Below, in pieces: positions 1-13,437 of a stretch of 20,000 nucleotides of DNA. This stretch comes from an uncultured virus (IMG/VR IMGVR_UViG_3300033069_000856). Lineage: Duplodnaviria; Heunggongvirae; Uroviricota; Caudoviricetes. The position numbers and the translations under genes are program-made. Every line of letters starts with the position of its first letter. Position 1 is the first letter of the stretch. The DNA lies in the IMG/VR virus record IMGVR_UViG_3300033069_000856; one strand, 5' to 3'. The notes below the pieces were generated by a model. That model was not told the origin of the DNA and did not search any database. It worked only from the letters and a program-made list of their open reading frames with translations.

Positions 1-294
1 TTTAATCAACGGAAGATTAGGCCAGTGAGGGATACTTATGTGGTTGAAGAGGGATTTGCTGGGGCTGCCTACACAATGAAAGCCGAGTCAGCTCTGAGCA
101 AGCATTCTTGTGCTAAGCTTGAGGATTGGTGCAGACCTTACCATGTAGGTAGGTTAGATAGTACGTTTGATCCAGAGTGGTACACTCAGCGCTACCCAGA
201 GGCAACCAAGCTCTGGAAAGATTCGCTTGATCGAGATGAGACCATGGTACTCAGGAGACATTTCATTGAAAACACTTCAGTACACAAATTGTGA
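1..294 (+). CDS. Hypothetical protein, 5'-truncated by the window edge; probably a member of the small-ORF array
   Basis: Frame 1 is open from position 1 (FNQRKIRPVRDTY...) to TGA at 294 and overlaps the next gene start by 29 nt. The true start lies outside the window or at GTG 25. Confidence 0.6.
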   Translation, partial: FNQRKIRPVRDTYVVEEGFAGAAYTMKAESALSKHSCAKLEDWCRPYHVGRLDSTFDPEWYTQRYPEATKLWKDSLDRDETMVLRRHFIENTSVHKL

Positions 295-532
295 AGTCTT
301 GGACTGCAGCACCTCTGGTGGTTATCTGATATCGTATGGGCCTTATATACTTAATGCCTTGTGCACTCCGTGGAGAAAACTGAAATGGTATTCAGTCTTA
401 CGATATCAAGCATTAATATACCGCTTTAGAACACGCGATAGCCTTTATCAGAATGTGGATTGTCGATGCAAACCCAGAACTAAATTCAAGGATTTTGACT
501 TACTGATGGAGGTCTCTCATGAAAACACTTGA
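266..532 (+). CDS. MxTL-tag small protein, family A (88 aa, TTG start, MKTLQY...)
   Basis: TTG AAA ACA CTT at 266 with AGGAGA at 253-258. It lies inside track ORF 167..532. Contains L-x-x-L-x-x-PW-RK like the downstream paralogs. Confidence 0.75.
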   Translation: MKTLQYTNCEVLDCSTSGGYLISYGPYILNALCTPWRKLKWYSVLRYQALIYRFRTRDSLYQNVDCRCKPRTKFKDFDLLMEVSHENT

Positions 533-779
533 TTGGGTTAAGCTAGCCAATTCACGAAGAAGGTCTGAGGTCCAGCCGTACACCTATAGGGGTATAACTG
601 ACACACTCATATACCTAAGCAGTCGTTGGCGTAAAACTAAGTTTGACTGGCAGGATACTGACGTTAGGCTTAGTGCCGGAGAGCTCGGTAGATACTGGGT
701 CTTACCTTTGGACAAACGCTACAGGACTAAAGACTGGGATAGCGTTGCACTGTTCCCCTTATCGGTGGTCGTCAAATGA
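519..779 (+). CDS. MxTL-tag small protein, family A (86 aa, MKTLDW...)
   Basis: GGAGG upstream. Motifs LSSRWRK and LPLDKRY match family A. Confidence 0.85.
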   Translation: MKTLDWVKLANSRRRSEVQPYTYRGITDTLIYLSSRWRKTKFDWQDTDVRLSAGELGRYWVLPLDKRYRTKDWDSVALFPLSVVVK

Positions 780-1030
780 AAACACTGAACCTAACTGTCT
801 TATACAAACCTATCCCTAGTAACTACAGTCCAGCTTTAGCGTATAGCATAAAGCTCTGCCTAACCAGGATGTCGCAGCCATGGCATAAACGCTTAAAGAT
901 TTGGGACTCAAACGTAGTACGGTGGAGTAGGATCGGATTTACACGTATGTATGACCTTCCAGTTGATGATAGGTTCAAGTTCAAAGACTTCGTATCCCAA
1001 AAGGACTTTCTCATCCTGAAGTTCAAATGA
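776..1030 (+). CDS. MxTL-tag small protein, family A (84 aa, MKTLNL...)
   Basis: ATGA overlap with the previous stop. Motifs LTRMSQPWHK and GFTRMYDLPVDDRF. Confidence 0.85.
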   Translation: MKTLNLTVLYKPIPSNYSPALAYSIKLCLTRMSQPWHKRLKIWDSNVVRWSRIGFTRMYDLPVDDRFKFKDFVSQKDFLILKFK

Positions 1031-1290
1031 AAACACTCAATTTCGTTAAATTAGCCAAGAATGATATAGTCAGATTTTGCTCTGCCGATAATGAACTGGC
1101 AAATATACGCTGCATGCTATCTAGAATGTCAAGACCATGGCGTAAGCATTTGTACGTAGGTGAGGGTTCTAGTGTGTCTTGGCACAGAACTGGATTCGTG
1201 TATGTGTACGATTTGCCAGTGGATAATAGGTACAACGAACTAGATTACTTAACCGATTTACCGCTTGCCCTAACGATCAAAATCAAATGA
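1027..1290 (+). CDS. MxTL-tag small protein, family A (87 aa, MKTLNF...)
   Basis: ATGA overlap. Motifs LSRMSRPWRK and GFVYVYDLPVDNRY; clear paralog of 776..1030. Confidence 0.85.
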   Translation: MKTLNFVKLAKNDIVRFCSADNELANIRCMLSRMSRPWRKHLYVGEGSSVSWHRTGFVYVYDLPVDNRYNELDYLTDLPLALTIKIK

Positions 1291-1550
1291 GAACACTAGA
1301 CTGGCCTCAGTTAAACCCACCACCTCTTACATGGCGTGGCCTATCAGAGGTTGTTCTTAATGAACTAAATGATGCTTTGCACGTGCTTTCACTCCCATGG
1401 GCGTCATCAAAAACAGTTAATAACCACTGTACGATACACGGCAATCGTTATGGCTTTCTGAATATTTGGGATGCTCATCTGGATATGCGGTATAAGCCCA
1501 GGCCGTTCATGTCAGACAACGCACTCCAATTGTTGATAGAGGTTAAATGA
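1287..1550 (+). CDS. MxTL-tag small protein, family A (87 aa, MRTLDW...)
   Basis: ATGA overlap. Motifs LSLPW and GFLNIWDAHLDMRY. Confidence 0.85.
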   Translation: MRTLDWPQLNPPPLTWRGLSEVVLNELNDALHVLSLPWASSKTVNNHCTIHGNRYGFLNIWDAHLDMRYKPRPFMSDNALQLLIEVK

Positions 1551-1849
1551 AAACACTACGAGCCCAAAATCTCAGTTATGCAGAACAGAACTCAGCTAAG
1601 ACTTTACGGTTCTGCTTCAACATGATGACCGGTCTCCGGTACCTGGTGGTGGACCAGCACAAGCCTGGCTCCCTTAAAAGCCTTCCAAGGATGAATCCAA
1701 GAGCTGTAGTCAAGTTCAAGAAGGATAACGTAGAGTGCTCCCGCAGTTCTGCCCGTGGTAAGGAAGAGCAGGCCAAGGAAGGGCACCACTGGTCAAGGCC
1801 CATCTACGGGGCCTTCTCGATTAACTCAGAACTTGACACCAGTATTTGA
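1547..1849 (+). CDS. MxTL-tag small basic protein (100 aa, MKTLRAQ...)
   Basis: ATGA overlap and GAGG upstream. The body is unrelated to family A and uses many C/G-ending codons. Confidence 0.75.
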   Translation: MKTLRAQNLSYAEQNSAKTLRFCFNMMTGLRYLVVDQHKPGSLKSLPRMNPRAVVKFKKDNVECSRSSARGKEEQAKEGHHWSRPIYGAFSINSELDTSI

Positions 1850-1873
1850 CTTCTAAGCCAAACCAGGTAAACT
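1846..1873 (+). promoter_or_regulatory. Putative sigma70-type promoter (TTGACT-16 nt-TAAACT), probably driving a leaderless mRNA for 1880..2503
   Basis: TTGACT at 1846-1851 and TAAACT at 1868-1873. The ATG at 1880 sits at the expected +1 and has no SD sequence. Confidence 0.5.
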
Positions 1874-1879
1874 ACATAA

Positions 1880-2503
1880 ATGGCAACAATTACCCCTAAT
1901 ACTCAGTACCAGCCCGGATCAGTTCCTGGATTCGAGAGCTTCACAATGATCCCTACTAGCAAGTCAACCGCTACAGGGGATGATTTCTCTGGTTTGGCTA
2001 TGGGAGGGTACTCCCCCCATGAGGCCGCCCCTACCTTGGAATATGATGAAAATGGTAGGGCCTATGGGGTACGTGATCCCCAGACTGGGCGTATCTACAA
2101 CGTTTCTAATCTACCGCCCAATGTGACCAGCCAGGACCTCGCTAACTTCATTGCCAGCGTCCGGATGCCCCCTAAGGTACAAAGCGCCCCAGCGGTCTCT
2201 AATGCCCCCAGGAAGCAAGCTATGGAGAAGCCTAGAACCACCTCCAATATTGTCCTGAAGCTTAATGGTATTAAAGTCTCATTAGCGGTATTAGAGGGTA
2301 TTGTCAGCGATGACAGGACCAGCTTAATGCTGATATTCCCTTCCGAGAACGAACAACCAATTGAACTAGATAGACAGCTAGAGGGCCTTGTATTCGCCCT
2401 CCCCACCTGTAGCCTAGTGTGTAGCTACTACGGGCAGAAGTTCAACCTGAAGTCCGGTGACACTGCGGTTATCTTTTTGATCGACTCGATCCAGGATAGC
2501 TAA
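1880..2503 (+). CDS. Hypothetical phage protein (207 aa), no MxTL tag
   Basis: Long ORF with a Pro/Thr/Gly-rich N-terminal half and a beta-rich-looking C-terminal domain. It interrupts the small-ORF array. Confidence 0.8.
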   Translation: MATITPNTQYQPGSVPGFESFTMIPTSKSTATGDDFSGLAMGGYSPHEAAPTLEYDENGRAYGVRDPQTGRIYNVSNLPPNVTSQDLANFIASVRMPPKVQSAPAVSNAPRKQAMEKPRTTSNIVLKLNGIKVSLAVLEGIVSDDRTSLMLIFPSENEQPIELDRQLEGLVFALPTCSLVCSYYGQKFNLKSGDTAVIFLIDSIQDS

Positions 2504-2515
2504 AAGAAAGCACAA

Positions 2516-2776
2516 ATGAAAACACTGAAGAATCCCCGGTGGCTTCACCTGGGGATTTTGTGGCATTGTATTAAGAACTGGAAAGAGAGCGTTAAGAACC
2601 ATGGTATCCACACCTTCCTACAGTCGACCCACTTAATGGCTCTTGGCAGGAGGGTAGAGCTCCTAAATGACGTAGCCACCTTGTCGAGCTACCCTATGTT
2701 CTTCGGTAGTACTCCTAGTAATAACATATGTAGGAAGACTGAGATTAGGCGGAGGAAGTACCAATTCAAACGCTAA
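2516..2776 (+). CDS. MxTL-tag small protein (86 aa, MKTLKN...)
   Basis: caaATGAAAACACTG junction, as seen at the family A starts. Confidence 0.75.
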   Translation: MKTLKNPRWLHLGILWHCIKNWKESVKNHGIHTFLQSTHLMALGRRVELLNDVATLSSYPMFFGSTPSNNICRKTEIRRRKYQFKR

Positions 2777-3084
2777 AGTCTTCTGACGTGTTCATTACGC
2801 ACGAACCTTTTATAGACAATTACGATACTAGTTATTACCTTTCGCTGCTGTATGTTGAGCAGCAAGTAGACAAGTTTAAACTGAGGTGGGAGTGGTATGC
2901 TGTTACTGGTGCACGTATTAAGTTTGATAACGTGTTAAGAAGGGGAAAATGCTCGCTATTGTTCCAGCACCTATACACAGAAGAAGTCAAGGATAGAAAA
3001 GAAATGGGTATAGGCTGTGCCCTAGCCGACTGGCCCCATATCCCTAGCACACAAATCAAACTCTCAAGTAGGACATTCCTATGA
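2764..3084 (+). CDS. MxTL-tag small protein, family B (106 aa), probable non-canonical ATT start
   Basis: ATT CAA ACG CTA (I/M-Q-T-L) at 2764 is in frame with track start 2788, with GGAGG at 2751-2755. Paralog of 3081..3419 (LYVEQ-x-VDK, W-x-A-x-x-G-x-x-IK, WP). Confidence 0.75.
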   Translation: MQTLKSSDVFITHEPFIDNYDTSYYLSLLYVEQQVDKFKLRWEWYAVTGARIKFDNVLRRGKCSLLFQHLYTEEVKDRKEMGIGCALADWPHIPSTQIKLSSRTFL

Positions 3085-3419
3085 AAACACTACACACAAC
3101 TAATGTTCTTGTCATCAAAGACAAAGGCTCTCGGCCTCGGCAGCACTCTGCCCTTTCAAGGTTATACGTTGAACAGCCGGAGGTTGACAAGTATAAGGTA
3201 GGCTATACCTGGTTCGCTTCCTTAGGTGTGTCTATTAAGTTACGTGGGTGGGGCGGAGTAGCAGTTGGCATGCTACGAACTCAGTTATTCGTAGAAGAGA
3301 ATTACCCAGGTAGGCAGTTTGGGGCAGGGTCTGGAGTAGACAACTGGCCCCTAGTCTCTAATAACAGGGTTGACCTGAACTGGAACTTCTACAATGAACA
3401 CTTTACACCCGCTTACTAG
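3081..3419 (+). CDS. MxTL-tag small protein, family B (112 aa, MKTLHT...)
   Basis: ATGA overlap. Motifs LYVEQPEVDKYK, LFVEE and DNWP are shared with the upstream gene. Confidence 0.85.
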   Translation: MKTLHTTNVLVIKDKGSRPRQHSALSRLYVEQPEVDKYKVGYTWFASLGVSIKLRGWGGVAVGMLRTQLFVEENYPGRQFGAGSGVDNWPLVSNNRVDLNWNFYNEHFTPAY

Positions 3420-3615
3420 TGCATTGGCTGCGTTCTCATACCCACAGAAAAAGTACTATGCCAGGTATACCGTTACCCATCACAGGTACTACAAGCAATT
3501 CAAGCTTCTGCCAGCAAAGAGGCATTGGCGCTCGCAACTATATGGAGCCTCAATCACTCCAGTAATGTACGGGACAAAAATGCCAGAAGGTTGGAAAGAA
3601 AAATGGACACACTGA
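3394..3615 (+). CDS. MxTL-tag small basic protein (73 aa, MNTLHP...)
   Basis: ATG AAC ACT TTA; overlaps the previous gene by 26 nt. Confidence 0.7.
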   Translation: MNTLHPLTSALAAFSYPQKKYYARYTVTHHRYYKQFKLLPAKRHWRSQLYGASITPVMYGTKMPEGWKEKWTH

Positions 3616-3977
3616 AAAACAAAGACGACTACAGGTTAGCCAGGTTTAATGAGTTGTGCAAACCTGATTCAGATAGAGCGCGTACTGCTAGAGTGCATGC
3701 TCAATGTGACGTCAGTAAATGGTTCTGGCCTAAAACTAGCCCATTCTCTTTGGGAAGGTGTGGCCCTCTCGACCCGATTGCCCTTTCTTCCATATATAAC
3801 CCCGGGATAGCTGCAGTAATCACTGACCTGGACTTCTATGGGGCTAGCATCAAAGACGTTAAGACGCTTTATTACGTTGCTGTAGACACAGTAATTAACG
3901 CAGCTTCGTTAGATAAAGTGTTATGGCACGGCAAGGTAAGAATCACAATCTATAGCTCTAAATATAGAAGGGGCTAA
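3603..3977 (+). CDS. MxTL-tag small protein (124 aa, MDTLKN...)
   Basis: Internal ATG GAC ACA CTG at 3603 within track ORF 3525..3977; 13-nt overlap with the previous gene. Confidence 0.75.
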   Translation: MDTLKNKDDYRLARFNELCKPDSDRARTARVHAQCDVSKWFWPKTSPFSLGRCGPLDPIALSSIYNPGIAAVITDLDFYGASIKDVKTLYYVAVDTVINAASLDKVLWHGKVRITIYSSKYRRG

Positions 3978-3978
3978 A

Positions 3979-4236
3979 ATGGACTCAACTCTACAAGTAG
4001 ATTGGGATGAACTAGAGCTCAAGGACTTACCGTCAGTTGTACTTGCGAGAGGTACTTGGGATGGGGCATACGCATATAGAGTAACTACCAGGTTTTACAA
4101 CAAAAGTATGCCTATCCGCTCAGCAGCTTCACCCCATAAGTTTCGTTCATTTGTGCTAACTCTTGAGTCCACCCCATCATGGCTAAGTCCTTTGCCCTCT
4201 ATCTTCTATGCCTACAAACCGGAGTTACCCTGGTAA
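3979..4236 (+). CDS. Small protein with variant tag (85 aa, MDSTLQ...)
   Basis: Starts 2 nt after the previous stop, with AAGGGG upstream. The TL is shifted by one residue. Confidence 0.7.
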   Translation: MDSTLQVDWDELELKDLPSVVLARGTWDGAYAYRVTTRFYNKSMPIRSAASPHKFRSFVLTLESTPSWLSPLPSIFYAYKPELPW

Positions 4237-4511
4237 TGAAAACACTAAGAGCTCAAACGATTAAAGCAAGAACAGCTACACGACCCCCATTCTTAGGTCA
4301 CCACCATTACTTACAAACATGGGGAGCAAGGGCGGTAGTTGATCCAGCTGCTGCGACCGATGACAACATATGCCGTACTTGCCGAATTCGTAATGGCATC
4401 GCTGACATACTTCAAGAGGCTGCTGATTATTGCCATTTAGTTTGGGTTAGCCAAGAAGAGTGGCGTAGCTCTAATAGTATGGAGTTCATATGCAAACACT
4501 CAAACCGGTAG
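4236..4511 (+). CDS. MxTL-tag small protein (91 aa, MKTLRAQ...), CxxC
   Basis: TAATG overlap at 4234-4238. Contains CRTC. Confidence 0.75.
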   Translation: MKTLRAQTIKARTATRPPFLGHHHYLQTWGARAVVDPAAATDDNICRTCRIRNGIADILQEAADYCHLVWVSQEEWRSSNSMEFICKHSNR

Positions 4512-4708
4512 AAGACCTTTTAGTGGAAGAACTTGTGTTTCCTTGTGTATTACCCAAGAGAACTAAGACGCCGCTATGGCACGGCGATCTAGGTTATAGG
4601 GTACTAGAGCTTCAACGTAAAAATTGTGAGTGTGAAGTTTGTGCAGAAGCTGTAGGATTTTCTGACGTACTACACCTACTTAAAGTAGGGAAATATGAAA
4701 ACCCTTAG
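4490..4708 (+). CDS. MxTL-tag small protein (72 aa, MQTLKP...), CxCxxC
   Basis: GGAG upstream. Contains CECEVC. Confidence 0.75.
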   Translation: MQTLKPVEDLLVEELVFPCVLPKRTKTPLWHGDLGYRVLELQRKNCECEVCAEAVGFSDVLHLLKVGKYENP

Positions 4709-4964
4709 TAACACCATTCAACTAGATGTCTGTATACAAGATGATGCTCCGTTTACTTGGCATAAGATGAACACAAGACATAGCGTAGGTGAGAACTATA
4801 AGTCCTATTCTTATTCAATAACCATTAGGTCTGGTGGTTGCCAGTGTGGCCAATGTGTTCAAGAGAGGTACCTGATCTCTTTTCATCGTATTAAAGACCT
4901 GTATACACAAGGAGATCCTCATTACTCATTGCTTGCAGATCCATTACGCTTTGATGAGCTTTAG
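4695..4964 (+). CDS. MxTL-tag small protein (89 aa, MKTLSN...), CxCxxC
   Basis: Contains CQCGQC; 14-nt overlap with the previous gene. Confidence 0.75.
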   Translation: MKTLSNTIQLDVCIQDDAPFTWHKMNTRHSVGENYKSYSYSITIRSGGCQCGQCVQERYLISFHRIKDLYTQGDPHYSLLADPLRFDEL

Positions 4965-5169
4965 TCCTCCGAAGATAATAGATCGGCCATGGCTTATGAT
5001 CGGCGTACACATCACCAACTGGTACATGTGGTTAGAGAACCTAGGTGTTATCCAGTTCGCGTCAGGTGGCTCGGCCTACTTACCTACTATGGGTCGACAT
5101 TCAATCAGTGGTATTCGCCCTACTTACGGTTTCATAGATGAAAACCCTCAACTTCAATCTAAGCTTTGA
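4933..5169 (+). CDS. Small hypothetical protein without the tag (start uncertain: TTG 4933 or ATG 4954)
   Basis: Fills the gap between two tagged genes, overlapping both. Confidence 0.55.
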   Translation: MQIHYALMSFSPPKIIDRPWLMIGVHITNWYMWLENLGVIQFASGGSAYLPTMGRHSISGIRPTYGFIDENPQLQSKL

Positions 5170-5356
5170 TACTGACTTTAATGCCCATGCTGATATATTG
5201 CCTACTACTCCCAGTCTGTACAAGTGGTTCGCCTGGTCTAAGGTAGTGAAGTTCATACTCAAGTTTCCAAGTTCCACTAGTAATCTAGACCGCAGTGCTC
5301 GCCATGTTTTGCGTATACCAGCAATATACTACCCATTCAGTCCGTGGGAGGATTAA
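5138..5356 (+). CDS. MxTL-tag small protein (72 aa, MKTLNF...)
   Basis: ATG AAA ACC CTC start; its TAA overlaps the next ATG. Confidence 0.75.
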   Translation: MKTLNFNLSFDTDFNAHADILPTTPSLYKWFAWSKVVKFILKFPSSTSNLDRSARHVLRIPAIYYPFSPWED

Positions 5357-5565
5357 TGAAGACACTCCAAGACAGAAAACGATTGCTAGCTAAGAATGGG
5401 AAATATGGGGTATACACTTACCCGCATAAGACGCTTGTTCACTATAGTGTGATCAAGGGAGAGGCGCTCTGGAAGTTAGGGCGTAACTCCCATTCCAGTA
5501 AAATATCCTTTACCCAAGTACTCAAGGCATTTAAGCTATGGGAGCTAGTACGTGCAAACCCTTAA
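5356..5565 (+). CDS. MxTL-tag small basic protein (69 aa, MKTLQD...)
   Basis: TAATG overlap with GGAGG upstream; internal start in track ORF 5344..5565. Confidence 0.75.
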   Translation: MKTLQDRKRLLAKNGKYGVYTYPHKTLVHYSVIKGEALWKLGRNSHSSKISFTQVLKAFKLWELVRANP

Positions 5566-5806
5566 AGACATCTCGATTATTGGCATCATGAACTTCAAGT
5601 GCAGGCAGTTTACGGCCCCAGAATTGGCGCATGAGGACAGCATCATTTATCCTTGGGGCATTAAGATACTAACTCGTGAAGGTCTCTGCTACTTCTTTGA
5701 CAAATATGACGACCGTAAAAAGGTACGCTCGGAGGCGGGCATCACCTACAAGTCAGCCCTGCGGTGCATCCGGTGCCTGCACTTGTTGAAGAAGGTAAAG
5801 CTGTGA
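5552..5806 (+). CDS. MxTL-tag small protein (84 aa, GTG start, MQTLKD...)
   Basis: GTG CAA ACC CTT with GGGAG upstream. Confidence 0.75.
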   Translation: MQTLKDISIIGIMNFKCRQFTAPELAHEDSIIYPWGIKILTREGLCYFFDKYDDRKKVRSEAGITYKSALRCIRCLHLLKKVKL

Positions 5807-6075
5807 GGACTCTAGACTGTATTGGTATCGATTTCAGCTTTAACCCAGATTTCATGATGGCACAATACTATACAAGTGATTTTGGTGTGGAGGCTGGTAT
5901 ACATATTTACGCATCCGCGCTCTGGGTTGAGTTCTCTACTGTCCCAATTGAGATATTTGCCTTTGTTTGGAGAAAGCTAAATGCACACACTAGAACACCA
6001 CTCCCAGATCATTACCGAGACGTTCCAAGCTCAGTACATCCCGTCATTAGACGGCAGGAGGAGTTGGATCGGTGA
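5803..6075 (+). CDS. MxTL-tag small protein (90 aa, GTG start, MRTLDC...)
   Basis: GTGA overlap with the previous stop; GTG AGG ACT CTA with AAGGT upstream. Confidence 0.7.
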   Translation: MRTLDCIGIDFSFNPDFMMAQYYTSDFGVEAGIHIYASALWVEFSTVPIEIFAFVWRKLNAHTRTPLPDHYRDVPSSVHPVIRRQEELDR

Positions 6076-6127
6076 CTACTGGGTACTCCCAGATGTGACT
6101 TAACTTAGGTACGAAGCCGAGGTAGGT

Positions 6128-6865: not shown

Positions 6866-6891
6866 TTAACCCCTATAACCTAAGGAATGGT

Positions 6892-7218: not shown

Positions 7219-7538
7219 AAACACTCGAAGGGCATACAAAGTTGATAGCTGATCTCTGGAAGAGCCTAGAGCCATGGCAGTGCTACAACCCTGCTGCTGT
7301 AAAGTATGATAACGAGAGAATAGTTGACATTTATAGGCCTGGTGATAGCCTGTTTATAGAGCTTTCCGGGCAAATGCTATCAGTGGTATACGGGATTAGT
7401 AACAATAGTGATGTGAGTAAAGTTGGATCGTGTCACGAGGTTTGGGATACTGAGCGAGGCTGGGAGGGTGGTCACCAGATAGGTTGGAGGTTCAACAGAT
7501 ACTTAACAGCGGCAGAGATGGTAAGGGACATCGTATGA
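7215..7538 (+). CDS. MxTL-tag small protein, family C (107 aa, MKTLEG...)
   Basis: ATGA overlap and AAGGA RBS. Motif SLEPW...LFIELSGQML. Confidence 0.85.
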   Translation: MKTLEGHTKLIADLWKSLEPWQCYNPAAVKYDNERIVDIYRPGDSLFIELSGQMLSVVYGISNNSDVSKVGSCHEVWDTERGWEGGHQIGWRFNRYLTAAEMVRDIV

Positions 7539-7780
7539 ACACACTCAAAGACCCCAAAGACCCTGAGACAGCATTTACTTACTCAGCTAATACGCGTTGG
7601 GAACTAAATTATTCATGCAACATCTGTGGGCATACTGACCTACCAGATAAGGACCTGTTCCAAGAGCTGCACTCTCAAATGAAAATCTACAGCGCCCACT
7701 TAAACTCAGAGGGCTGCTTAGATTTTCGTTCATCTGCAGACAATGGATACAGAACGTCTAGCCTGTGGCAATACGAATGA
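7535..7780 (+). CDS. MxTL-tag small protein, family C (81 aa, MNTLKD...)
   Basis: ATGA overlap at 7535. Motifs CNIC and LFQELHSQM. Confidence 0.8.
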   Translation: MNTLKDPKDPETAFTYSANTRWELNYSCNICGHTDLPDKDLFQELHSQMKIYSAHLNSEGCLDFRSSADNGYRTSSLWQYE

Positions 7781-8088
7781 ACACACTTATCAGTGACTCT
7801 TCAATAGTTGATGAGTTTAAGCAAAACATACCCCCTTGGCGGGCGAATTACTCTCACACAGATATTCAAGAATTAGCTGAGTTAAGAATCAAGAATACGG
7901 ATAGTCCTCTGTTCATGACATGCATAGAGATCGTGTACACCCCGTACAACCTTGGCGATGGGTACGGATATCTGGGGTTTGCCGCTTATGAGAATAATCA
8001 GCACTTCCGTCTTGTTCACTTTACGGCTTATGAATCAATAGGCAATTCAAAGAAGCCATGGGAGGTGCTACATGACGACTCTCATTGA
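7777..8088 (+). CDS. MxTL-tag small protein, family C (103 aa, MNTLIS...)
   Basis: ATGA overlap at 7777. Motif DEFKQNIPPW. Confidence 0.8.
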   Translation: MNTLISDSSIVDEFKQNIPPWRANYSHTDIQELAELRIKNTDSPLFMTCIEIVYTPYNLGDGYGYLGFAAYENNQHFRLVHFTAYESIGNSKKPWEVLHDDSH

Positions 8089-8386
8089 TCCAAAAATTTG
8101 CATACATGAGGTGTACAGTTGTTTACCGAAGTGGGTAGAGAGTAGTAAGGTTACGCCAGTGAACTACCACATCCTTAGTTTACACTTAGACGTGCCCTTT
8201 CTACCTGCCCTGTTCAAGCAGATGCTTAGTGTGCATGAGTTCTGTAGTGGTAAGGCTAACTCCCTAGGATGGTGCCTTCATGCTTTAGCTCCTGATAGCA
8301 TGACAGCAGATGCTCACTACTATATAGGTCTTATCTACAATCCTAACCTGGAGCATAAAGGTGAATGTATTTTCCCAAGACTCTGA
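8072..8386 (+). CDS. MxTL-tag small protein, family C (104 aa, MTTLID...)
   Basis: GGAGGT RBS. Motif LPKW...PALFKQML. Confidence 0.8.
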   Translation: MTTLIDPKICIHEVYSCLPKWVESSKVTPVNYHILSLHLDVPFLPALFKQMLSVHEFCSGKANSLGWCLHALAPDSMTADAHYYIGLIYNPNLEHKGECIFPRL

Positions 8387-8579
8387 GGTAGTTCTCGAAG
8401 AATTCGCTTCCTATATATCTCCATGGTGCTTTTACTATACAGCCGGTCAGTTCTTGCTAGAGTACTTGCACTCCGAGCTTTACCACAATCAATCGATAAG
8501 AAGCGTGGCTAAGCTGGAAAAGACTGGTGCGTTCGGAACAATAACAGCCGAATGGAGGTACCGTGAGTACTTTGGATAA
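8361..8579 (+). CDS. Family C small protein with degenerate tag (72 aa, GTG start, MNVF...)
   Basis: GGAG upstream. EEFASYISPW resembles DEFFQSMSPW of 8819..9121. Confidence 0.7.
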   Translation: MNVFSQDSEVVLEEFASYISPWCFYYTAGQFLLEYLHSELYHNQSIRSVAKLEKTGAFGTITAEWRYREYFG

Positions 8580-8835
8580 AGACAAATTCGACACTGACTT
8601 CCTTACTCCATGGTATGAGCCTTGGAGGTACAACGCAGATAAGCATTTTGCTCACAAGTTTAGCCAACTTTTCAGTGAACTAGAGGAAGAGATGATTAGA
8701 TACAGGAGTGAATGCCCGCTAGGTGTTTACTTACTACTAGAACAGCCAGAAAGCGGATGGAGCATAGAACTTCGGCAATGTCACCCGATAGTCTCACGAT
8801 TCGGCAATTGGAGGCAGAATGCCCACGCTAATTGA
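8563..8835 (+). CDS. MxTL-tag small protein, family C (90 aa, GTG start, MSTLDK...)
   Basis: GGAGGT RBS. Motif YEPW...LFSELEEEM. Confidence 0.8.
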   Translation: MSTLDKDKFDTDFLTPWYEPWRYNADKHFAHKFSQLFSELEEEMIRYRSECPLGVYLLLEQPESGWSIELRQCHPIVSRFGNWRQNAHAN

Positions 8836-9121
8836 CTGCTTCAGCAAGACCGCAGCATACTCTGTGCTTTGGGATGAGTTCTTCCAATCAATGAGCCCTT
8901 GGCAGACAGGGCACACTACTAGAGTTCCAATTGAAGGTCTACGCAGGCCCAGGCTGTTGAACTTCTTGTGCTTCCAATTACTAGAGTATGATGCCCGCCA
9001 TCCAATCCAAGGTATAGCCCTAATGTACTTTAGGGAGTCTTATTGGATAGTGAGCTACGATAAGTCTAAGTTTAAAGGGAGGGACTATGCAGACCTTGGA
9101 ATTAAGCGTTACGGTCGATGA
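8819..9121 (+). CDS. MxTL-tag small protein, family C (100 aa, MPTLID...)
   Basis: GGAGG RBS. Motif MSPW...LLNFLCFQLLEY. Confidence 0.8.
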   Translation: MPTLIDCFSKTAAYSVLWDEFFQSMSPWQTGHTTRVPIEGLRRPRLLNFLCFQLLEYDARHPIQGIALMYFRESYWIVSYDKSKFKGRDYADLGIKRYGR

Positions 9122-9323
9122 CCGCTTAGTGGATAGCCTGAAAGATTGGTGGGTTTGGAGGTCGATTAAACTATCGACTAGGTCCTTTGACTTAGCCTTC
9201 ATCAAGTACCTATACCATCAAATATTCGAGTACAGGATTAGGCAAGATACCGGGGATGGCGTCTATTTTTATGTGTTTGACATTAGGCCTTTCTACTTTA
9301 AAATGTGGCTGAAGAGGACATAG
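9087..9323 (+). CDS. MxTL-tag small protein, family C-like (78 aa, MQTLEL...)
   Basis: GGGAGG RBS. FIKYLYHQIFEY resembles the corresponding segment of the upstream gene. Confidence 0.8.
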   Translation: MQTLELSVTVDDRLVDSLKDWWVWRSIKLSTRSFDLAFIKYLYHQIFEYRIRQDTGDGVYFYVFDIRPFYFKMWLKRT

Positions 9324-9325
9324 CT

Positions 9326-9577
9326 ATGCAGACACTTGAGTCTTGTGATCCACCTGTGTTGATCATTAACCTAGATCCGCCTTCAGGTAAGTACGCATTC
9401 ATAGCAGCAGCCCACCCAGAACTAGACTTACTATATAGGCTTGTCAGGATACTCAGTGACTGGGAGTATAAGAAGCGTAATGACTGGGTAATCTATCCGG
9501 ATTTCTTCCATGCATGGTATCCAGACGTCGGGCGAGAGCTCTCTAAAGCCAGATGCTTTAAAAGGTGGCACCCATGA
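9326..9577 (+). CDS. MxTL-tag small protein (83 aa, MQTLES...)
   Basis: ATG at 9326 with GAGGA RBS, 2 nt after the previous stop. Confidence 0.75.
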   Translation: MQTLESCDPPVLIINLDPPSGKYAFIAAAHPELDLLYRLVRILSDWEYKKRNDWVIYPDFFHAWYPDVGRELSKARCFKRWHP

Positions 9578-9786
9578 AAACACTAAGATACCCAAGAGAC
9601 TTGAAGCAGCTCGACTTCAATCTAGTCCCCAATGTAAAGTACTGGCTATCCTATCCACCCCTTTTTCGTGATTTGCTTCTACTTATGTACACGCTCTACG
9701 TTACTGCATGGGACAGGTGTGTATTCAACCTAGCTGACATCTCTTACAACCAAGCCTCTACTGCCACTTGGAGACGACATAAATGA
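9574..9786 (+). CDS. MxTL-tag small protein (70 aa, MKTLRY...)
   Basis: ATGA overlap at 9574; AGGTGG upstream. Confidence 0.75.
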   Translation: MKTLRYPRDLKQLDFNLVPNVKYWLSYPPLFRDLLLLMYTLYVTAWDRCVFNLADISYNQASTATWRRHK

Positions 9787-10052
9787 ATACTCTGGACGGC
9801 AACACTACGGTTAAGCATGACTTACTGTCTTTTGTAGTTCCTTGGAGATTAGAAAGAAAGATTGAGTGGTTTTACGATCCGCACCCTGATACGCCCTTAT
9901 TAACAGAGATCTTTGAGCAAATGCACCACGCATTCCTGGAACTTACATACCCCAAGCGTTGTAGTGCTACTACCCGCAGGGCATCTATTACTACGAAGAC
10001 ACGTAGAGAACCGCTGTTGCACCTGCACCTCAAACAATACATGTTGGTCTAA
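9783..10052 (+). CDS. MxTL-tag small protein, family C (89 aa, MNTLDG...)
   Basis: ATGA overlap. Motif VVPW...PLLTEIFEQM. Confidence 0.8.
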   Translation: MNTLDGNTTVKHDLLSFVVPWRLERKIEWFYDPHPDTPLLTEIFEQMHHAFLELTYPKRCSATTRRASITTKTRREPLLHLHLKQYMLV

Positions 10053-10054
10053 CC

Positions 10055-10309
10055 TTGAAAACACTAACACTGTACGAACCTATTGACCTTGACATTAAGA
10101 GATTACCCGGCCCTGCCTACATAGTAGATATGCTGCGTAGCAGGCTAGAGATATTTCAGCAATTAGCTACTGCGGCGAAGTACATTGTAGAAGCGATTGA
10201 CCCATCACGTAGGAAGTACAACTTCCACGCTTATGGCTGGGGAAGTACCGAGACAGTCTCTGGGATTTTCACTGAATACAAGGAAGTCATCTTATTCCTT
10301 AGGCACTAA
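10055..10309 (+). CDS. MxTL-tag small protein, family D-like (84 aa, TTG start, MKTLTL...)
   Basis: TTG AAA ACA CTA. LP...VDMLRS...FQQLAT resembles 12400..12684. Confidence 0.75.
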   Translation: MKTLTLYEPIDLDIKRLPGPAYIVDMLRSRLEIFQQLATAAKYIVEAIDPSRRKYNFHAYGWGSTETVSGIFTEYKEVILFLRH

Positions 10310-10536
10310 TGAAAACACTCCAACTAGAGCTGATAGCTCCGTTCTCAAATATTGGCATAGACACTCTTTGGTACTACGCAAGTCACCGTACAGTAATAGG
10401 TAACCTACCAACTGACTGTAAAGGGTTCATGATGTTTGGGACTGTGATATGTGATTATCTAAGCGTACACCAGCTATACGCTATCAATCTATTCACACAC
10501 TCTAGCTTGCGCCTAAGGCAGAAGGTATGGGCATGA
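10309..10536 (+). CDS. MxTL-tag small protein (75 aa, MKTLQL...)
   Basis: TAATG overlap. Confidence 0.75.
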   Translation: MKTLQLELIAPFSNIGIDTLWYYASHRTVIGNLPTDCKGFMMFGTVICDYLSVHQLYAINLFTHSSLRLRQKVWA

Positions 10537-10793
10537 ACACACTTATTACATTTGACGTACTTTCTACTGTTCAAAAACAACCAATAGAAGACTTCTATAA
10601 AGTCCTAAATGTGTGCAGGACCAGGTTCTCCGCATTTGACTACGGTATAAAACCCCACACTATGTACAACTGGTGGGGTTTTGAGTTCTCTAACACACGC
10701 GTGTACTCAATGCTGGTGTTGGAAGGTCCCAGAAAAATGGCCTTTCATTGGTGGGTGACAAGTATAATGGAGGCACGCTATGCCGACCCTTGA
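10533..10793 (+). CDS. MxTL-tag small protein (86 aa, MNTLIT...)
   Basis: ATGA overlap at 10533. Confidence 0.75.
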   Translation: MNTLITFDVLSTVQKQPIEDFYKVLNVCRTRFSAFDYGIKPHTMYNWWGFEFSNTRVYSMLVLEGPRKMAFHWWVTSIMEARYADP

Positions 10794-11016
10794 GTACATT
10801 GCCGTCCAATTGATCGTGTTTGACGAGCCGCTATACAAGTTTAATCATGTATTCGATCTTTACAGAACAGGTCAAGTAGGCTGCTACTTTGACAGCTGTC
10901 CTTTGAAGCACGGTGAGTGGATATTACTTACACATGTACGCTGGCGTTCACTGTGTGTGACGTACTTACCCGAAGTAGCTTTCCAATACTCCTTAACCAG
11001 ATGGTGGCTAGTCTAA
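10780..11016 (+). CDS. MxTL-tag small protein (78 aa, MPTLEY...)
   Basis: GGAGG RBS; 14-nt overlap. Confidence 0.75.
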   Translation: MPTLEYIAVQLIVFDEPLYKFNHVFDLYRTGQVGCYFDSCPLKHGEWILLTHVRWRSLCVTYLPEVAFQYSLTRWWLV

Positions 11017-11297
11017 TGCACACACTCAAATCACATGCTAATATGTTTGTCGGATTTGACACAATCTCCATTGCGCCTTGGAGCAGGGTGTACGAGCATC
11101 GCGAAAACCCGCATACCCATAAAGGCTATTACGTTGATAATGGTAAGTTTGAGACGGAAAGAACAATCTTAGGTCGTGATTTCGTACTTCGTTACGGGTT
11201 CTGCAGCTTTAACTATGGCCCGTTTGAGCAGCTGGCGTGGTGGACTTCGCAATACACTGACTATACTGAGAATGCGCTAGGAGAGAATAGGGTATGA
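11016..11297 (+). CDS. MxTL-tag small protein (93 aa, MHTLKS...)
   Basis: TAATG overlap at 11014-11018; internal start in track ORF 10917..11297. Confidence 0.75.
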   Translation: MHTLKSHANMFVGFDTISIAPWSRVYEHRENPHTHKGYYVDNGKFETERTILGRDFVLRYGFCSFNYGPFEQLAWWTSQYTDYTENALGENRV

Positions 11298-11554
11298 AAA
11301 CACTCAAGTCCGGGATACAAAAGTTAACCCCGCCATCTATGAGCTCCATGACACGTAATAACCTTGTTGCGGTTGATTACTTAAAAAGCAAGTGCAGCTT
11401 GTTACAGAACTTAGCTGCATTGTGCTGGGAGCTTGACGCCCAAGGAGTAATGGAGGCATTTGCTTACCCAAGTAATAGGCCCCGTATCTGCGAGGTAATA
11501 TGGATAGGATTTGATAATGACTCATACCACAGATTGTCAAGGCTCGCACAATGA
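11294..11554 (+). CDS. MxTL-tag small protein, family D (86 aa, MKTLKS...)
   Basis: ATGA overlap and AGGAG upstream. Motif LKSKCSLLQNLA...AF...EVIWI. Confidence 0.8.
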   Translation: MKTLKSGIQKLTPPSMSSMTRNNLVAVDYLKSKCSLLQNLAALCWELDAQGVMEAFAYPSNRPRICEVIWIGFDNDSYHRLSRLAQ

Positions 11555-11778
11555 ACACGCTCAACCCCAGTACTTCAATCGAGCTGATTGGTTTTGATGC
11601 TGCTCTAGATATCAGCTATATCTTAATTCAGTCCCTAGAGTTCACCGAGGCTTGGAACACATTTAGGATGTATTACACCAATAGGCCTCACTTGAGGATT
11701 GGCTATCTTCCAGCGCATTTTAGGTACTACCTGGATCTGCCGGAGCTATTAGTACTAAAGTTCAGGGAATTAGAATGA
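11551..11778 (+). CDS. MxTL-tag small protein (75 aa, MNTLNP...)
   Basis: ATGA overlap. LIGFDA resembles the N-terminal segment of family D. Confidence 0.75.
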   Translation: MNTLNPSTSIELIGFDAALDISYILIQSLEFTEAWNTFRMYYTNRPHLRIGYLPAHFRYYLDLPELLVLKFRELE

Positions 11779-12113
11779 AAACACTAGCACCAACAACAGA
11801 CCCAACATGGGGTTTCACAATCTTGCCCGACATTGACCTAAGTGAATTTGACGTTAATCGACCGCTTCCTTGCCCTAAGACAAAGGTACTGTACCTAGAG
11901 AGCGACTGCGCCCAGTTACAGCTGTTTGCTACTCTTACTGAGTCTATACTGTCATGGACTAACTCTACGACTCCACGCTTCCTGGATTCTTATGCATTCG
12001 ATGTATATACCAGCATACTACGTGACCTACCTAGGGTGGCTATAGCAGAAGTCGTCTGGGTAACAACCTCACCTAATCCGTTTCCTTGGGACCTTATAAC
12101 TAGATTACGGTAA
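11775..12113 (+). CDS. MxTL-tag small protein, family D (112 aa, MKTLAP...)
   Basis: ATGA overlap. Motif FD...PLP...LESDCAQLQ...YAF...EVVWV...FPW. Confidence 0.85.
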   Translation: MKTLAPTTDPTWGFTILPDIDLSEFDVNRPLPCPKTKVLYLESDCAQLQLFATLTESILSWTNSTTPRFLDSYAFDVYTSILRDLPRVAIAEVVWVTTSPNPFPWDLITRLR

Positions 12114-12122
12114 GGTACAACA

Positions 12123-12440
12123 ATGCACACACTAACGATGTCACTAGCCGGATTTGACGCCTCTAAACCATTGCCGGATATTGTCCCTGTACTTGGCGGG
12201 CTAGCAAGTGAGTGCCACAATCTTCAGTTGTGCGGCACTGTCCTACGAGACTGCACAACTGACGTAAAAGACAAAGTAATGTACGCGTTCACCTTATACA
12301 CTACATACAGCGGGGACGATAAGGACGTATACCTAGAAGTTGCATGGGTGTGCTCTCGGGGACAGAACTACCCTTGGCTAAGAATACAGGAAGGAATGTA
12401 TGGACACACTAGACGTGGATTTGAGACAGTTCGAGCCTAA
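12123..12440 (+). CDS. MxTL-tag small protein, family D (105 aa, MHTLTM...)
   Basis: TAAGGT RBS. Motif FD...PLP...LASECHNLQ...YAF...EVAWV...YPW. Confidence 0.85.
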   Translation: MHTLTMSLAGFDASKPLPDIVPVLGGLASECHNLQLCGTVLRDCTTDVKDKVMYAFTLYTTYSGDDKDVYLEVAWVCSRGQNYPWLRIQEGMYGHTRRGFETVRA

Positions 12441-12684
12441 TTTTCCTCTGCCTCCAGTTCGTTCATCTGTAGATTGGCTCATAAGCCAGTGCAGTAAGTT
12501 CCAAGCACTGGCCACTGTAGTCAATAACAGCAAGTATAGCTCGCGTAATGCTGGAGGCTACCAGCGTAGTTTCTATGCGTTCAGGCACTCAGCGATTGTC
12601 AGCCCTAACGATGTAATCTTCCAGGCACTGACCCCACACTGTGCCGACGATGGCTTAGTGTATGAGTCAATCCTGCTGATTTAA
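12400..12684 (+). CDS. MxTL-tag small protein, family D (94 aa, MDTLDV...)
   Basis: AAGGA RBS. Motif FE...PLP...LISQCSKFQALAT...YAF. Confidence 0.85.
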   Translation: MDTLDVDLRQFEPNFPLPPVRSSVDWLISQCSKFQALATVVNNSKYSSRNAGGYQRSFYAFRHSAIVSPNDVIFQALTPHCADDGLVYESILLI

Positions 12685-12686
12685 CC

Positions 12687-12932
12687 ATGAACACACTACA
12701 CATAGACATAAGTGAGTTCTATGGTTATAACGAACCATGGACGCATGCGAGATTAACTAAAAATGCGTTTGGGGTTAGACAACCTCAGCCACTACTTGAG
12801 GAACTGCGAATACAGTGCTACTTTGGCTGGTACAGGTTTATTAATAACCCTGATTTTAGATTTGTAAGAGTTGTAAACATTACAGAGAGGAAGGGCTTAG
12901 CTATTATTGGGATTATCCGAGATATGCAATGA
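12687..12932 (+). CDS. MxTL-tag small protein (81 aa, MNTLHI...)
   Basis: Family D-like start (DISEF) and a family C-like EPW...PLLEEL segment. Confidence 0.8.
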   Translation: MNTLHIDISEFYGYNEPWTHARLTKNAFGVRQPQPLLEELRIQCYFGWYRFINNPDFRFVRVVNITERKGLAIIGIIRDMQ

Positions 12933-13234
12933 ACACACTAGACATAACCCTGGATGGCTTTAATGGTAGTGAGATATTACCTAAACCTTTGTTGACATAC
13001 TGCCCTGACTTCGCACTTGACTGCAGGTTATTAAGGATACTCGCTGTTACAGCTTTTACCTCACTTGAGTCTTTGAAGGACACTGATGAATATAGACAAA
13101 TATACAGCTTTTCCTTAACCCACCCAGATATGCGCTTTATGCCTACTAAGGCCCTGGAGGTAGTATGGGTAGCGGAAATGCGTTTAGAGAACTATCCTTG
13201 GCGTGGCTTGAGGAATTTCAACCTGGACTTATAA
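12929..13234 (+). CDS. MxTL-tag small protein, family D (101 aa, MNTLDI...)
   Basis: ATGA overlap. Motif DCRLLRILA...YSF...EVVWV...YPW. Confidence 0.85.
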   Translation: MNTLDITLDGFNGSEILPKPLLTYCPDFALDCRLLRILAVTAFTSLESLKDTDEYRQIYSFSLTHPDMRFMPTKALEVVWVAEMRLENYPWRGLRNFNLDL

Positions 13235-13437
13235 TGAACACACTATACCACTGCCCTCAGCCATTAGAAAGAATTTCATTAGAATTTCCTCCGATTGCCC
13301 GTATCCACACCTCTGGCATACCCTGGGGCTTCATCCACATAGATTGGATACTGTACGGATTATGTCTTGATCACAAATATTATAGGAAGGCATCCAATAC
13401 CCTCCATGGGTACTATATCGTTATACTGTACCGCTAA
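13234..13437 (+). CDS. MxTL-tag small protein (67 aa, MNTLYH...), last unit of the array
   Basis: TAATG overlap at 13232-13236; internal start in track ORF 13165..13437. Confidence 0.7.
   Translation: MNTLYHCPQPLERISLEFPPIARIHTSGIPWGFIHIDWILYGLCLDHKYYRKASNTLHGYYIVILYR

What the first reader, a model, noticed from the sequence alone, without database searches (positions are those of the whole stretch)
266..13437. About 13-kb array of 42+ small, diverse proteins sharing an N-terminal M-x-T-L tag, next to the portal gene: candidate tagged-effector (capsid-loading) system
Seen: after moving starts to the coupled/RBS-supported codon, 42 ORFs of about 65-125 aa begin M-x-T-L (17 K, 9 N, 5 Q, 2 each R/D/H/P, 1 each V/T/S). 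MDSTL and MQTI are near-variants. The bodies belong to at least four apparently unrelated families plus singletons. None of the larger genes (1880, 13545 onward) has the tag. Established: T4 internal proteins IPI/IPII/IPIII are small, encoded in a variable locus, and packaged via a shared N-terminal capsid-targeting sequence (IPIII: MKTYQEFIAE); IPI* inhibits the GmrSD restriction enzyme. Inference: MxTL is a minimal address recognised by a phage chaperone, scaffold or portal, or by a protease or export machine, letting the phage deliver a large variable library of anti-defence or host-takeover proteins. Residues 5-10 do not match the T4 consensus, so this would be an analogous system. I do not recognise it as described.
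Basis: partly seen in the sequence, partly recalled or inferred. Interest (0 to 1): 0.93.

Follow-up and report, generated by a model that had tools for sequence, protein, structure and literature searches.

The report
Phage small-gene array sharing MxTL start
An uncultured freshwater phage carries about 45 tightly packed, otherwise unrelated small genes next to its portal gene, and nearly all begin with the same four residues (Met-x-Thr-Leu), a pattern seen in no relative examined and still without a known function.

Summary
On the + strand of 1-13500 there are 49 matches to start-NNN-ACN-Leu, against about 4 in shuffles, 5 on the - strand and 2 in the structural genes. 41 of 45 tiled small genes (42 of 46 with a doubtful 40-aa ORF) begin M-x-T-L. 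None of the 8 larger genes does.

The bodies form four families with no detectable link (BLAST, HMM, HHalign) plus about 20 singletons. All are ORFans.

Conservation follows codons. First and second positions of Thr3 and Leu4 are nearly invariant, third positions vary, and Leu is sometimes TTR. This points to protein-level selection. On top lies an A/C-rich, unstructured initiation context (AAA, ACA far above body usage), strongest where no GGAGG ribosome-binding site precedes the start.

One relative (portal 52% identical) has a syntenic array with a different, basic N-terminus (M-K/R-R). More distant relatives have neither array nor motif.

The defining features of the T4 capsid-targeting sequence (10-residue leader, L/I-x-E cleavage site) are absent. 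Capsid loading is possible but unsupported.

Best reading: a lineage-specific, tandemly amplified ORFan array whose proteins keep a four-residue N-terminal handle for a common, unknown partner. Main rivals are a translation-level signal kept by descent and an RNA operator.

The parts
266..1849 (+). Sub-array A: 6 small genes (starts 266, 519, 776, 1027, 1287, 1547), all M-x-T-L. Family F1 = 519, 776, 1027, 1287.
1880..2503 (+). Conserved 207-aa gene (starts MATI), not an array member. Homologues lie just upstream of the portal in L009 (8988-9755) and L032 (8701-9399).
   Evidence: no Pfam or NCBIfam hit; no tblastn match in cultured phages
2516..6603 (+). Sub-array B: 14 small genes plus the doubtful 5981 ORF. 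12 are tagged (13 with 5981). Untagged: 2788 (MFIT, paralogue of tagged 3081 = family F4) and 3979 (MDSTL). Two gaps, 4965-5137 and 6104-6270.
6182..6193 (+). Motif copy TAC-AAC-ACA-CTA with no start codon, in frame inside the short ORF 6128-6277. Probably a decayed array member.
6673..6819 (+). Conserved 48-aa Cys-rich gene (FEKNGE motif, starts MNTN). It lies directly upstream of the portal in relatives and is flanked here by hairpins near 6645-6661 and 6833-6865.
6892..13437 (+). Sub-array C: 25 small genes, 23 tagged. Untagged: 6892 (MQTI) and 8361 (MNVF). Holds most of family F3 (7215-9121; its member 6271 lies in sub-array B) and family F2 (10055, 10309, 11294-13234).
13455..13486 (+). 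Hairpin followed by a short U run, in the 107-nt spacer between the array and the portal. Possible terminator; z-score not significant.
13545..15383 (+). Portal gene (TTG start, 612 aa) and start of the untagged structural genes.

Best explanation
The region is a lineage-specific ORFan (hyperplastic) array in a large uncultured freshwater phage. The phage is distantly related, by its portal, to Vibrio phage D69 and Salmonella phage Arash.

- **Origin (shown).** The array grew by tandem duplication and very fast divergence around two conserved genes that normally sit next to the portal.
- **Expression (inferred).** The genes are probably translated as coupled units of long polycistronic messages.
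- **What all members keep (shown).** The first four residues, M-x-T-L, encoded by ATG-(A/C)A(A/C)-ACA-CTN.
- **Two layers of selection (shown).**
  - Thr3 and Leu4 are kept as amino acids.
  - The synonymous and second-codon positions are kept A/C-rich and G-poor. This gives an open initiation region and matters most where no strong Shine-Dalgarno sequence is present.
- **Function (inferred).** I take the tetrapeptide to be a shared N-terminal handle. One common partner, phage- or host-encoded, would treat a library of about 45 different small soluble proteins alike. Candidates are sorting into the prohead and timed proteolysis.
- **What the proteins do (inferred by analogy only).** They would be host-takeover or anti-defence effectors.
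For: **Array and tag.** 49 matches against 3.9 expected; 41 of 45 tiled genes are tagged.

**Codon-structured conservation in the unconditioned set of 45 genes.** Non-consensus counts are pos 7: 2, pos 8: 2, pos 9: 15, pos 10: 7, pos 11: 2, pos 12: 30.
- Thr uses all four codons.
- Leu is TTR in 3 genes (3394, 8563, 9087).

**Genes with a GGAGG site (post hoc split).** In the 8 genes preceded by GGAGG, ACA is used in only 2 of 8, against 27 of 34 in the rest (Fisher p = 0.006). Codon 2 is diverse and both TTG-Leu cases lie in this group.

**Tag on unrelated bodies.**
- BLASTP gave 8 pairs at E<1e-3 among 48 proteins.
- HMM iteration gave four families plus about 20 singletons.
- HHalign between families gave 0.5% or less.
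- The AF2 models are of low confidence: F2 pLDDT 57.8 and F3 55.8. They differ in secondary structure and leave residues 1-5 or 1-7 as coil.

**Array-specific.**
- 0 of 8 larger genes in the window carry the tag.
- ATGAANACACT has 0 matches in 5 relatives' records, 673 kb in total.
- No N-terminal motif appears in two relatives read whole, 119 and 112 kb.

**Syntenic array in L009.** It has a different protein-level N-terminus, M-K/R-R, with Arg coded by AGA, CGA, CGC and CGT.

**Tandem growth.** Family members are neighbours.

**Soluble proteins.** 0 of 47 small proteins have a hydrophobic 19-aa window.

**Precedent.** T4 Ip1-3 share nothing but an N-terminal leader that directs packaging (PMC12373910 and PMC3012670, passages read).
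Against: **No partner, no expression data, no virion data.**

**Strong nucleotide-level bias shows that part of the signal is not protein-level**:
- Lys AAA:AAG is 16:1, against 38:62 in bodies.
- Thr ACA is 29 of 42, against 30% in bodies.
- Leu TTR is 3 of 42, against 34% in bodies.

**Start regions are less structured than gene interiors.** MFE is -4.4 against -6.5 kcal/mol, p = 2e-4.

**A four-residue handle is shorter than any documented phage sorting signal.**

**Two family members (2788, 8361) keep their ORFs without the tag.**

**Fast divergence.** The conserved 207-aa gene is barely alignable between the window and L009 (E = 0.058). All members could therefore be one paralogous family diverged beyond recognition.

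**Composition.** The amino-acid make-up is close to random translation (r = 0.84), though Trp is 2-fold and Tyr 1.5-fold enriched.

**Untested.** The rest of the genome could not be checked for the tag.
Confidence: 0.38

Rival explanations
1. **No dedicated handle.** All members descend from one founder gene. The first four codons are kept because they make a good start context and early-elongation 'ramp' for translationally coupled genes that mostly lack a strong Shine-Dalgarno sequence. Any change lowers expression, so the motif survives by descent while the bodies drift.
For: - Codon choice is A/C-rich and G-poor, far from body usage.
- Start regions are unstructured.
- 16 junctions are -4 and 5 are -1.
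- The bias relaxes in genes with GGAGG.
- L009 starts are also A-rich: ATG-AAA-AGA or CGA.
- Family members are neighbours, so the array grew by tandem duplication.
- Non-core genes diverge very fast.
Against: - A-richness does not explain an invariant C at position 8 or CT at positions 10-11. ANA alternatives are equally A-rich, yet position 8 departs from C in only 2 of 45 genes.
- Genes with a strong GGAGG site still keep Thr and Leu while changing codons.
- The larger genes of the same phage lack the motif.
- Small-gene regions of relatives lack it too.
Confidence: 0.27
2. **RNA operator.** AUG-(A/C)A(A/C)-ACACU on the mRNA is bound or cut by one phage factor that switches the whole array on or off together. 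The models are T4 RegA, a translational repressor whose sites overlap the AUG of about 30 early mRNAs, and RegB, which cuts GGAG in early mRNAs.
For: - The motif covers +1 to +11 of almost every array mRNA and of nothing else in the window.
- Synonymous sites are biased.
- Precedent: PMC3014915 (passages read); PMC1702504 (abstract in the listing only).
Against: - Variation is confined to third codon positions, and Leu switches to TTR synonymously.
- RegA sites are A+U-rich and poorly conserved, unlike this motif.
- No RNA-binding protein or RNase is recognisable in the window.
- There is no Rfam match.
Confidence: 0.13
3. **The first reader's specific model.** M-x-T-L is a capsid-targeting sequence that loads the proteins into the prohead for injection, as with T4 internal proteins.
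For: - Diverse small proteins share only an N-terminal tag, as T4 Ips do.
- The array has the same orientation as the portal and lies beside it and other conserved head-side genes.
- About half of the proteins are basic: 22 of 42 have pI above 8.
Against: - The tag has 4 residues, not 10.
- Residue 7 is not conserved.
- There is no L/I-x-E site: 8 of 42 against 7 of 42 in the control.
- No protease or scaffold was identified.
- Relatives with the same portal family lack the array.
- A possible terminator hairpin separates the array from the portal.
- 12 of 42 proteins are acidic.
Confidence: 0.12
4. **DNA-level boundary element.** The 11-nt repeat serves as microhomology for unequal crossing-over or cassette exchange, like the PeSL motifs of T4-type hyperplastic regions.
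For: - The only repeated DNA in the array is the start motif.
- The array occupies three different intergenic positions around conserved genes.
- Precedent: PMC2839356 and PMC4122927 (abstracts in the listing only).
Against: - 11 nt is very short for recombination.
- The motif is strictly in frame with start codons and varies by codon position.
- In contigs of 4 runs from 2 studies the array was identical, with no joint inside it.
- No promoter or stem-loop composite is present.
Confidence: 0.05

Closest known systems
T4-type internal proteins (Ip1-3 and the polymorphic ip loci) with their capsid targeting sequence
   Same: - Small, non-homologous, variable proteins encoded in clusters.
- They share only an N-terminal signal.
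- Known members are injected anti-restriction proteins.
- Sources: PMC12373910, PMC3012670 and PMC9026906, passages read.
   Different: - The T4 leader has 10 residues, with targeting determinants at 4 and 7, and ends in an L/I-x-E site cut by gp21.
- Here only residues 1-4 are conserved and no such site exists.
- T4 has 3 Ips and its relatives about 10 kinds. Here one phage has 41-42.
- Packaging is untested here.
Hyperplastic regions / 'ORFanage' regions of T4-like phages, with PeSL cassettes
   Same: - Clusters of small ORFan genes wedged between conserved core genes.
- They are lineage-specific.
- Papers PMC2839356, PMC4122927 and PMC4503421 were seen as titles and abstracts in listings only.
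   Different: - PeSLs are intergenic promoter plus stem-loop composites.
- Here the genes overlap, sigma-70-like promoters are not enriched (18 against 30.6 expected), and the repeat lies inside the coding sequence.
T4 RegA translational operators
   Same: A short site overlapping the AUG of many mRNAs of one temporal class (PMC3014915, passages read).
   Different: - RegA sites are A+U-rich with no clear consensus.
- Here the site is A/C-rich, nearly invariant and varies by codon position.
Syntenic array in metagenome locus L009 (portal 52% identical)
   Same: - About 31 small + strand genes upstream of the same conserved gene pair and the portal.
- Tight tiling.
- A shared N-terminal signature.
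   Different: - The signature is basic (M-K/R-R, often followed by more basic residues) and less uniform: about 20 of 33 genes.
- No protein of one array matches one of the other.
N-terminal ClpX degrons (N-motifs 1-3)
   Same: - Short, unstructured, transferable N-terminal tags read by one machine (PMC12723719, passages read).
- From recall, not from any call: the N-motif-1 consensus (polar, T or hydrophobic, hydrophobic, basic, hydrophobic) resembles K/N-T-L-x.
   Different: - Residue 5 is basic in only 13 of 42 and acidic in 13 of 42.
- The host is unknown.
- Nothing was tested.

Membership tests
T4-type CTS-tagged internal proteins | Otherwise unrelated small proteins share an N-terminal leader | tested here: met
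   41 of 45 array genes begin M-x-T-L. HHalign between the four families gives 0.5% or less, and only residues 1-4 or 1-6 align.
T4-type CTS-tagged internal proteins | Leader of about 10 residues with targeting determinants at residues 4 and 7 (PMC9026906) | tested here: not met
   Information content falls from 3.3 bits at residue 4 to 1.06 at residue 5 and 0.36-0.60 at residues 6-12. The commonest residue at position 7 is T, in 7 of 42.
T4-type CTS-tagged internal proteins | L/I-x-E prohead-protease site closing the leader | tested here: not met
   [LI]xE occurs within the first 25 aa in 8 of 42, against 7 of 42 in residues 31-55. The E positions are scattered: 8, 10, 13, 18, 21, 24.
T4-type CTS-tagged internal proteins | gp21-like protease and scaffold core encoded by the phage | tested here: inconclusive
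   No Pfam, PHROG or NCBIfam match for the genes after the portal. The 494-aa protein has no match in cultured phages. The rest of the genome is not held.
T4-type CTS-tagged internal proteins | Proteins present in the virion and injected | not testable with these tools
   Needs virion proteomics.
Hyperplastic ORFan region (T4-like HPR / ORFanage) | Cluster of small genes without known homologues between conserved core genes, variable between relatives | tested here: met
   - 0 of 46 Pfam hits, 1 of 46 marginal PHROG hit, 0 of 49 NCBIfam hits.
- Families F2 and F3 have only their own members in 5.8 and 1.84 billion proteins.
- Conserved flanking genes are shared with L009 and L032, and the array is absent in L032 and others.
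Hyperplastic ORFan region (T4-like HPR / ORFanage) | PeSL-type intergenic promoter plus stem-loop repeats at gene borders | tested here: not met
   - Genes overlap.
- 18 promoter-like sites against 30.6 in shuffles; 17 terminator-like sites against 14.7.
- All repeat families centre on the start motif.
RegA-type translational operator set | Site overlaps the AUG on many mRNAs | tested here: met
   The motif spans +1 to +11 of 41-42 genes.
RegA-type translational operator set | A+U-rich, loosely conserved site and a regA gene in the phage | tested here: not met
   The site is A/C-rich and nearly invariant. No family match for any window protein. The rest of the genome was not available.
Single paralogous protein family with a structural N-terminal strand | All bodies homologous or of one fold, with the tag part of the fold | tested here: inconclusive
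   - No sequence link between families.
- The AF2 models differ (F2: helix plus hairpin; F3: mostly helical) and leave the tag as coil, but pLDDT is only 56-58.
- Divergence beyond recognition cannot be excluded.

The most novel reading that the evidence does not exclude
M-x-T-L is a minimal, transferable N-terminal sorting signal. A phage-encoded receptor reads it and loads a library of more than 40 different small effectors into one destination, either the prohead for injection or a protease for timed removal. The related phage L009 would use a different, co-evolved signal (M-K/R-R). That would make this the largest tagged-effector system known in a phage and a ready-made tag for cargo delivery.
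Probability: 0.15. Interest if true: 0.9.

Novelty: new variant of a known kind. Interest (0 to 1): 0.64.

Why it matters
- **If the tetrapeptide is a handle,** it marks about 45 unknown proteins as one functional class and gives a simple rule for finding them. It also offers a very short tag for directing cargo in phage engineering.
- **If it is a start or early-elongation signal,** it is an unusually sharp natural example of selection on codons 2-4. That is testable with simple reporters.
- **Either way,** the array is a clear case of rapid birth and divergence of phage ORFan genes around a fixed core. In contigs of two studies, with runs dated 2019 and 2025, it was identical wherever covered.

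Tried and rejected
**Sources that were closed or missing**
- Whole genome not held. No genome-wide count was possible.
- Repoila 1994 (PMC395341) not held.
- One literature search failed on a too-short term and was re-sent.

**Searches for the array or motif elsewhere**
- Two-copy motif pattern in viral contigs: 6 loci, at most 3 tagged small ORFs each.
These are chance matches.
- Portal relatives: 23 metagenome loci and 20 viral loci. Only L009 has an array, and none has M-x-T-L.
- Two relatives read whole.

**Homologue searches for array proteins**
- Only the window's own proteins were found.
- The profile search added 2 spurious tandem-repeat proteins.
- ESM Atlas: best score 0.80, at chance level; its own model has pLDDT 0.38.

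**Origin of new bodies by frameshift.** tblastn of the small proteins against the array DNA gave 13 non-self hits, all in frame. Rejected.

**Hypermutation or cassette turnover on short time scales.** In contigs of 4 runs the array was identical, with no joints inside it. Three 1-nt insertions at 13100-13108 sit in one depth-2 contig with loose ends on both sides.

**Expression.** No RNA holder was listed, so nothing can be said.

**Other scans.** No Rfam family and no tRNA.

**Secretion.** No signal peptide or membrane segment, so a Sec-type export signal is rejected.

**Structure.**
- Both models have pLDDT below 60, so I ran no fold search on them.
- Complex prediction was not used. I claim no binding pair, and no candidate partner has more than neighbourhood in its favour.

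**Literature.** Searches for a described array of phage small proteins with a common N-terminal motif found none. That covers only the held library and those terms.

Full report
**What is there**

The + strand of 266-13437 is tiled by about 45 small ORFs of 67-124 aa. The pattern start-NNN-ACN-(CTN|TTR) occurs as follows:

| Region | Matches | With ORF of 60 aa or more |
|---|---|---|
| + strand, 1-13500 | 49 | 41 |
| - strand, whole window | 5 | 0 |
| + strand, 13500-20000 | 2 | 0 |
| 200 mononucleotide shuffles of 1-13500 | mean 3.9, max 13 | - |

- The tagged start codon sits at the end of the preceding ORF. There are 16 junctions of -4 (ATGA) and 5 of -1, and 38 of 41 lie within -41 to +12 nt. 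The starts were therefore not picked to fit the motif.
- Of 45 tiled array genes, 41 begin M-x-T-L. With a doubtful 40-aa ORF at 5981 the count is 42 of 46.
- The exceptions are 2788 (MFIT), 3979 (MDSTL), 6892 (MQTI) and 8361 (MNVF).
- None of the 8 larger genes has the tag.

**Context**

- The 612-aa protein at 13545-15383 is a portal.
  - tblastn gives 26-30% identity to Vibrio phages D69, D181 and D148 and to the annotated portal of Salmonella phage Arash.
  - It has a weak PHROG_64 match.
  - It has 304 metagenomic relatives.
- No genome is held.
- The same DNA occurs in contigs of coded runs from two studies. Two runs are labelled riverine metagenome and dated 2019 and 2025.
  - Wherever covered, the array is identical and has no internal joints.
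  - Variant patches lie in the structural genes instead.
  - The best holders may be the source sample.

**Relatives**

- L009 (portal 52% identical) has a syntenic array of about 31 small + strand genes. They lie upstream of homologues of the window's 207-aa gene (1880) and 48-aa Cys-rich gene (6673), which there sit directly before the portal.
- In the window the array lies on both sides of these two genes, so it grew around them.
- L009's genes begin M-K/R-R in about 20 of 33 cases. Arg is coded by AGA (14), CGA (4), CGC and CGT.
- No protein of one array matches the other.
- L032 (45%) and the other relatives with 6 kb or more upstream have normal-sized genes.
- ATGAANACACT is absent from five relatives' records, 673 kb in total.
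- Two relatives read whole have small-gene regions but no N-terminal motif.
- Pattern scans of viral and prokaryotic collections gave only chance matches.

**The bodies**

- BLASTP, iterated HMMs and HHalign define four families:
  - F1: 519-1550.
  - F2: 10055, 10309, 11294-13234.
  - F3: 6271, 7215-9121.
  - F4: 2788, 3081.
- About 20 genes are singletons.
- Between families the HHalign probability is 0.5% or less. With full sequences only residues 1-4 or 1-6 align.
- Family members are neighbours, which points to tandem duplication.
- Nothing matches Pfam (0 of 46) or NCBIfam (0 of 49). One of 46 has a marginal PHROG hit.
- F2 and F3 have no relatives in 5.8 and 1.84 billion proteins.
- The proteins are soluble. 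Their pI is mixed. They are enriched in Trp and Tyr, against a composition otherwise near random translation.
- AF2 models from the paralogue alignments are weak (pLDDT 57.8 and 55.8). Their secondary structure differs and the tag is coil in both.
- There is no sign that new bodies arose by frameshift.

**Protein or nucleic acid?**

Both levels show.

*Protein level.*
- In the unconditioned 45 genes, departures from consensus are 2, 2, 15 at positions 7-9 and 7, 2, 30 at positions 10-12. That is a codon pattern.
- Thr uses all four codons, and Leu is TTR three times.

*Nucleotide level.* Synonymous choice is far from body usage:

| Codon choice | In the tag | In gene bodies |
|---|---|---|
| Lys AAA:AAG | 16:1 | 38:62 |
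| Thr ACA | 29 of 42 | 30% |
| Leu TTR | 3 of 42 | 34% |

- Start regions are less structured than gene interiors: MFE -4.4 against -6.5 kcal/mol, p = 2e-4.

*Link between the two.*
- In a post hoc split, the 8 genes with GGAGG use ACA in 2 of 8, against 27 of 34 in the rest (p = 0.006). All eight carry Thr-Leu, since the split was made within the tagged set.
- I read this as amino-acid selection on T3 and L4, plus selection for an open, A/C-rich start where coupling replaces a strong ribosome-binding site.

**Comparison with the T4 CTS**

- T4 Ips share only an N-terminal leader that directs packaging (PMC12373910, PMC3012670; passages).
- The CTS is the first 10 residues. Targeting depends on residues 4 and 7, and gp21 cleaves after L/I-x-E (PMC9026906, sections 2.5-2.6, passages).
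- Here conservation ends at residue 4-5.
- [LI]xE is not enriched: 8 of 42 against 7 of 42.
- This is therefore not a member of that family, though it could work in a like manner.
- PeSL-type borders are absent.
- RegA-type operators overlap the AUG but are A+U-rich and loose.

**Verdict**

- The interpretation as a tag on diverse bodies is supported at sequence level.
- The capsid-loading mechanism is unsupported.
- I favour a shared protein-level handle with an unknown partner (0.38).
- The rivals are:
  - a translation-level signal kept by descent (0.27);
  - an RNA operator (0.13);
  - a strict T4-like capsid-loading signal (0.12);
  - a DNA boundary element (0.05).

Noticed in passing
window 1880-2503, 6673-6819, 13545-15383; L009 8988-11815; L032 8701-11896: - A conserved set of genes recurs across the clade: a ~207-255-aa protein with a beta-rich C-terminal part, a small Cys-rich protein with an FEKNGE-like motif, and the portal.
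- The small protein's MEKNGE/MEKQNE-like start recurs upstream of the portal in L010, L020, L021, L023 and L029.
- Neither small gene has a known function.
   Followed up: partly
window 13545; L009 9995: The portal gene appears to start with TTG in both the window and L009.
   Followed up: no
window 6182-6193: A motif copy, TAC-AAC-ACA-CTA, lacks a start codon and lies in frame in a 49-aa ORF inside one of the two gaps of the array. It is probably a decayed member. The other gap (4965-5137) may hold another.
   Followed up: partly
window 16760-16820, 18093-18162, 19315-19344, 19950-19968: Contigs of the laid runs show clustered variant patches in the structural genes. The array showed none wherever it was covered. 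A co-occurring strain that differs in virion genes is likely.
   Followed up: no
window 6645-6661 and 6833-6865: Hairpins flank the 48-aa Cys-rich gene; the second includes a perfect 12-nt palindrome. They may set it apart as its own transcription unit. The z-scores are not significant.
   Followed up: partly
proteins P0015, P0090, P0104: Some portal homologues are 930-1016 aa long and carry Hint/intein and LAGLIDADG domains (PF05203, PF01079, PF14528, PF14890). This suggests inteins inserted in the portal genes of relatives.
   Followed up: no
L033 and L034 (one viral contig, both ends): The same portal locus appears at both ends of a 66.7-kb record that is classed as having inverted terminal repeats. 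This is either a long inverted duplication or an assembly artefact.
   Followed up: no
L057, L062, L088, L095, L110, L111, L126 (Robertmurraya kyonggiensis); L100, L127, L129 (Pallidibacillus thermolactis): The two-copy motif pattern hit many places in these two Bacillaceae genomes. That suggests a dispersed repeat that happens to contain it. It is unrelated to the phage array.
   Followed up: no
window 18558-18827: The 89-aa protein matches PHROG_21281 (unknown function, E = 8e-13). It is the only clear family match in the window.
   Followed up: no
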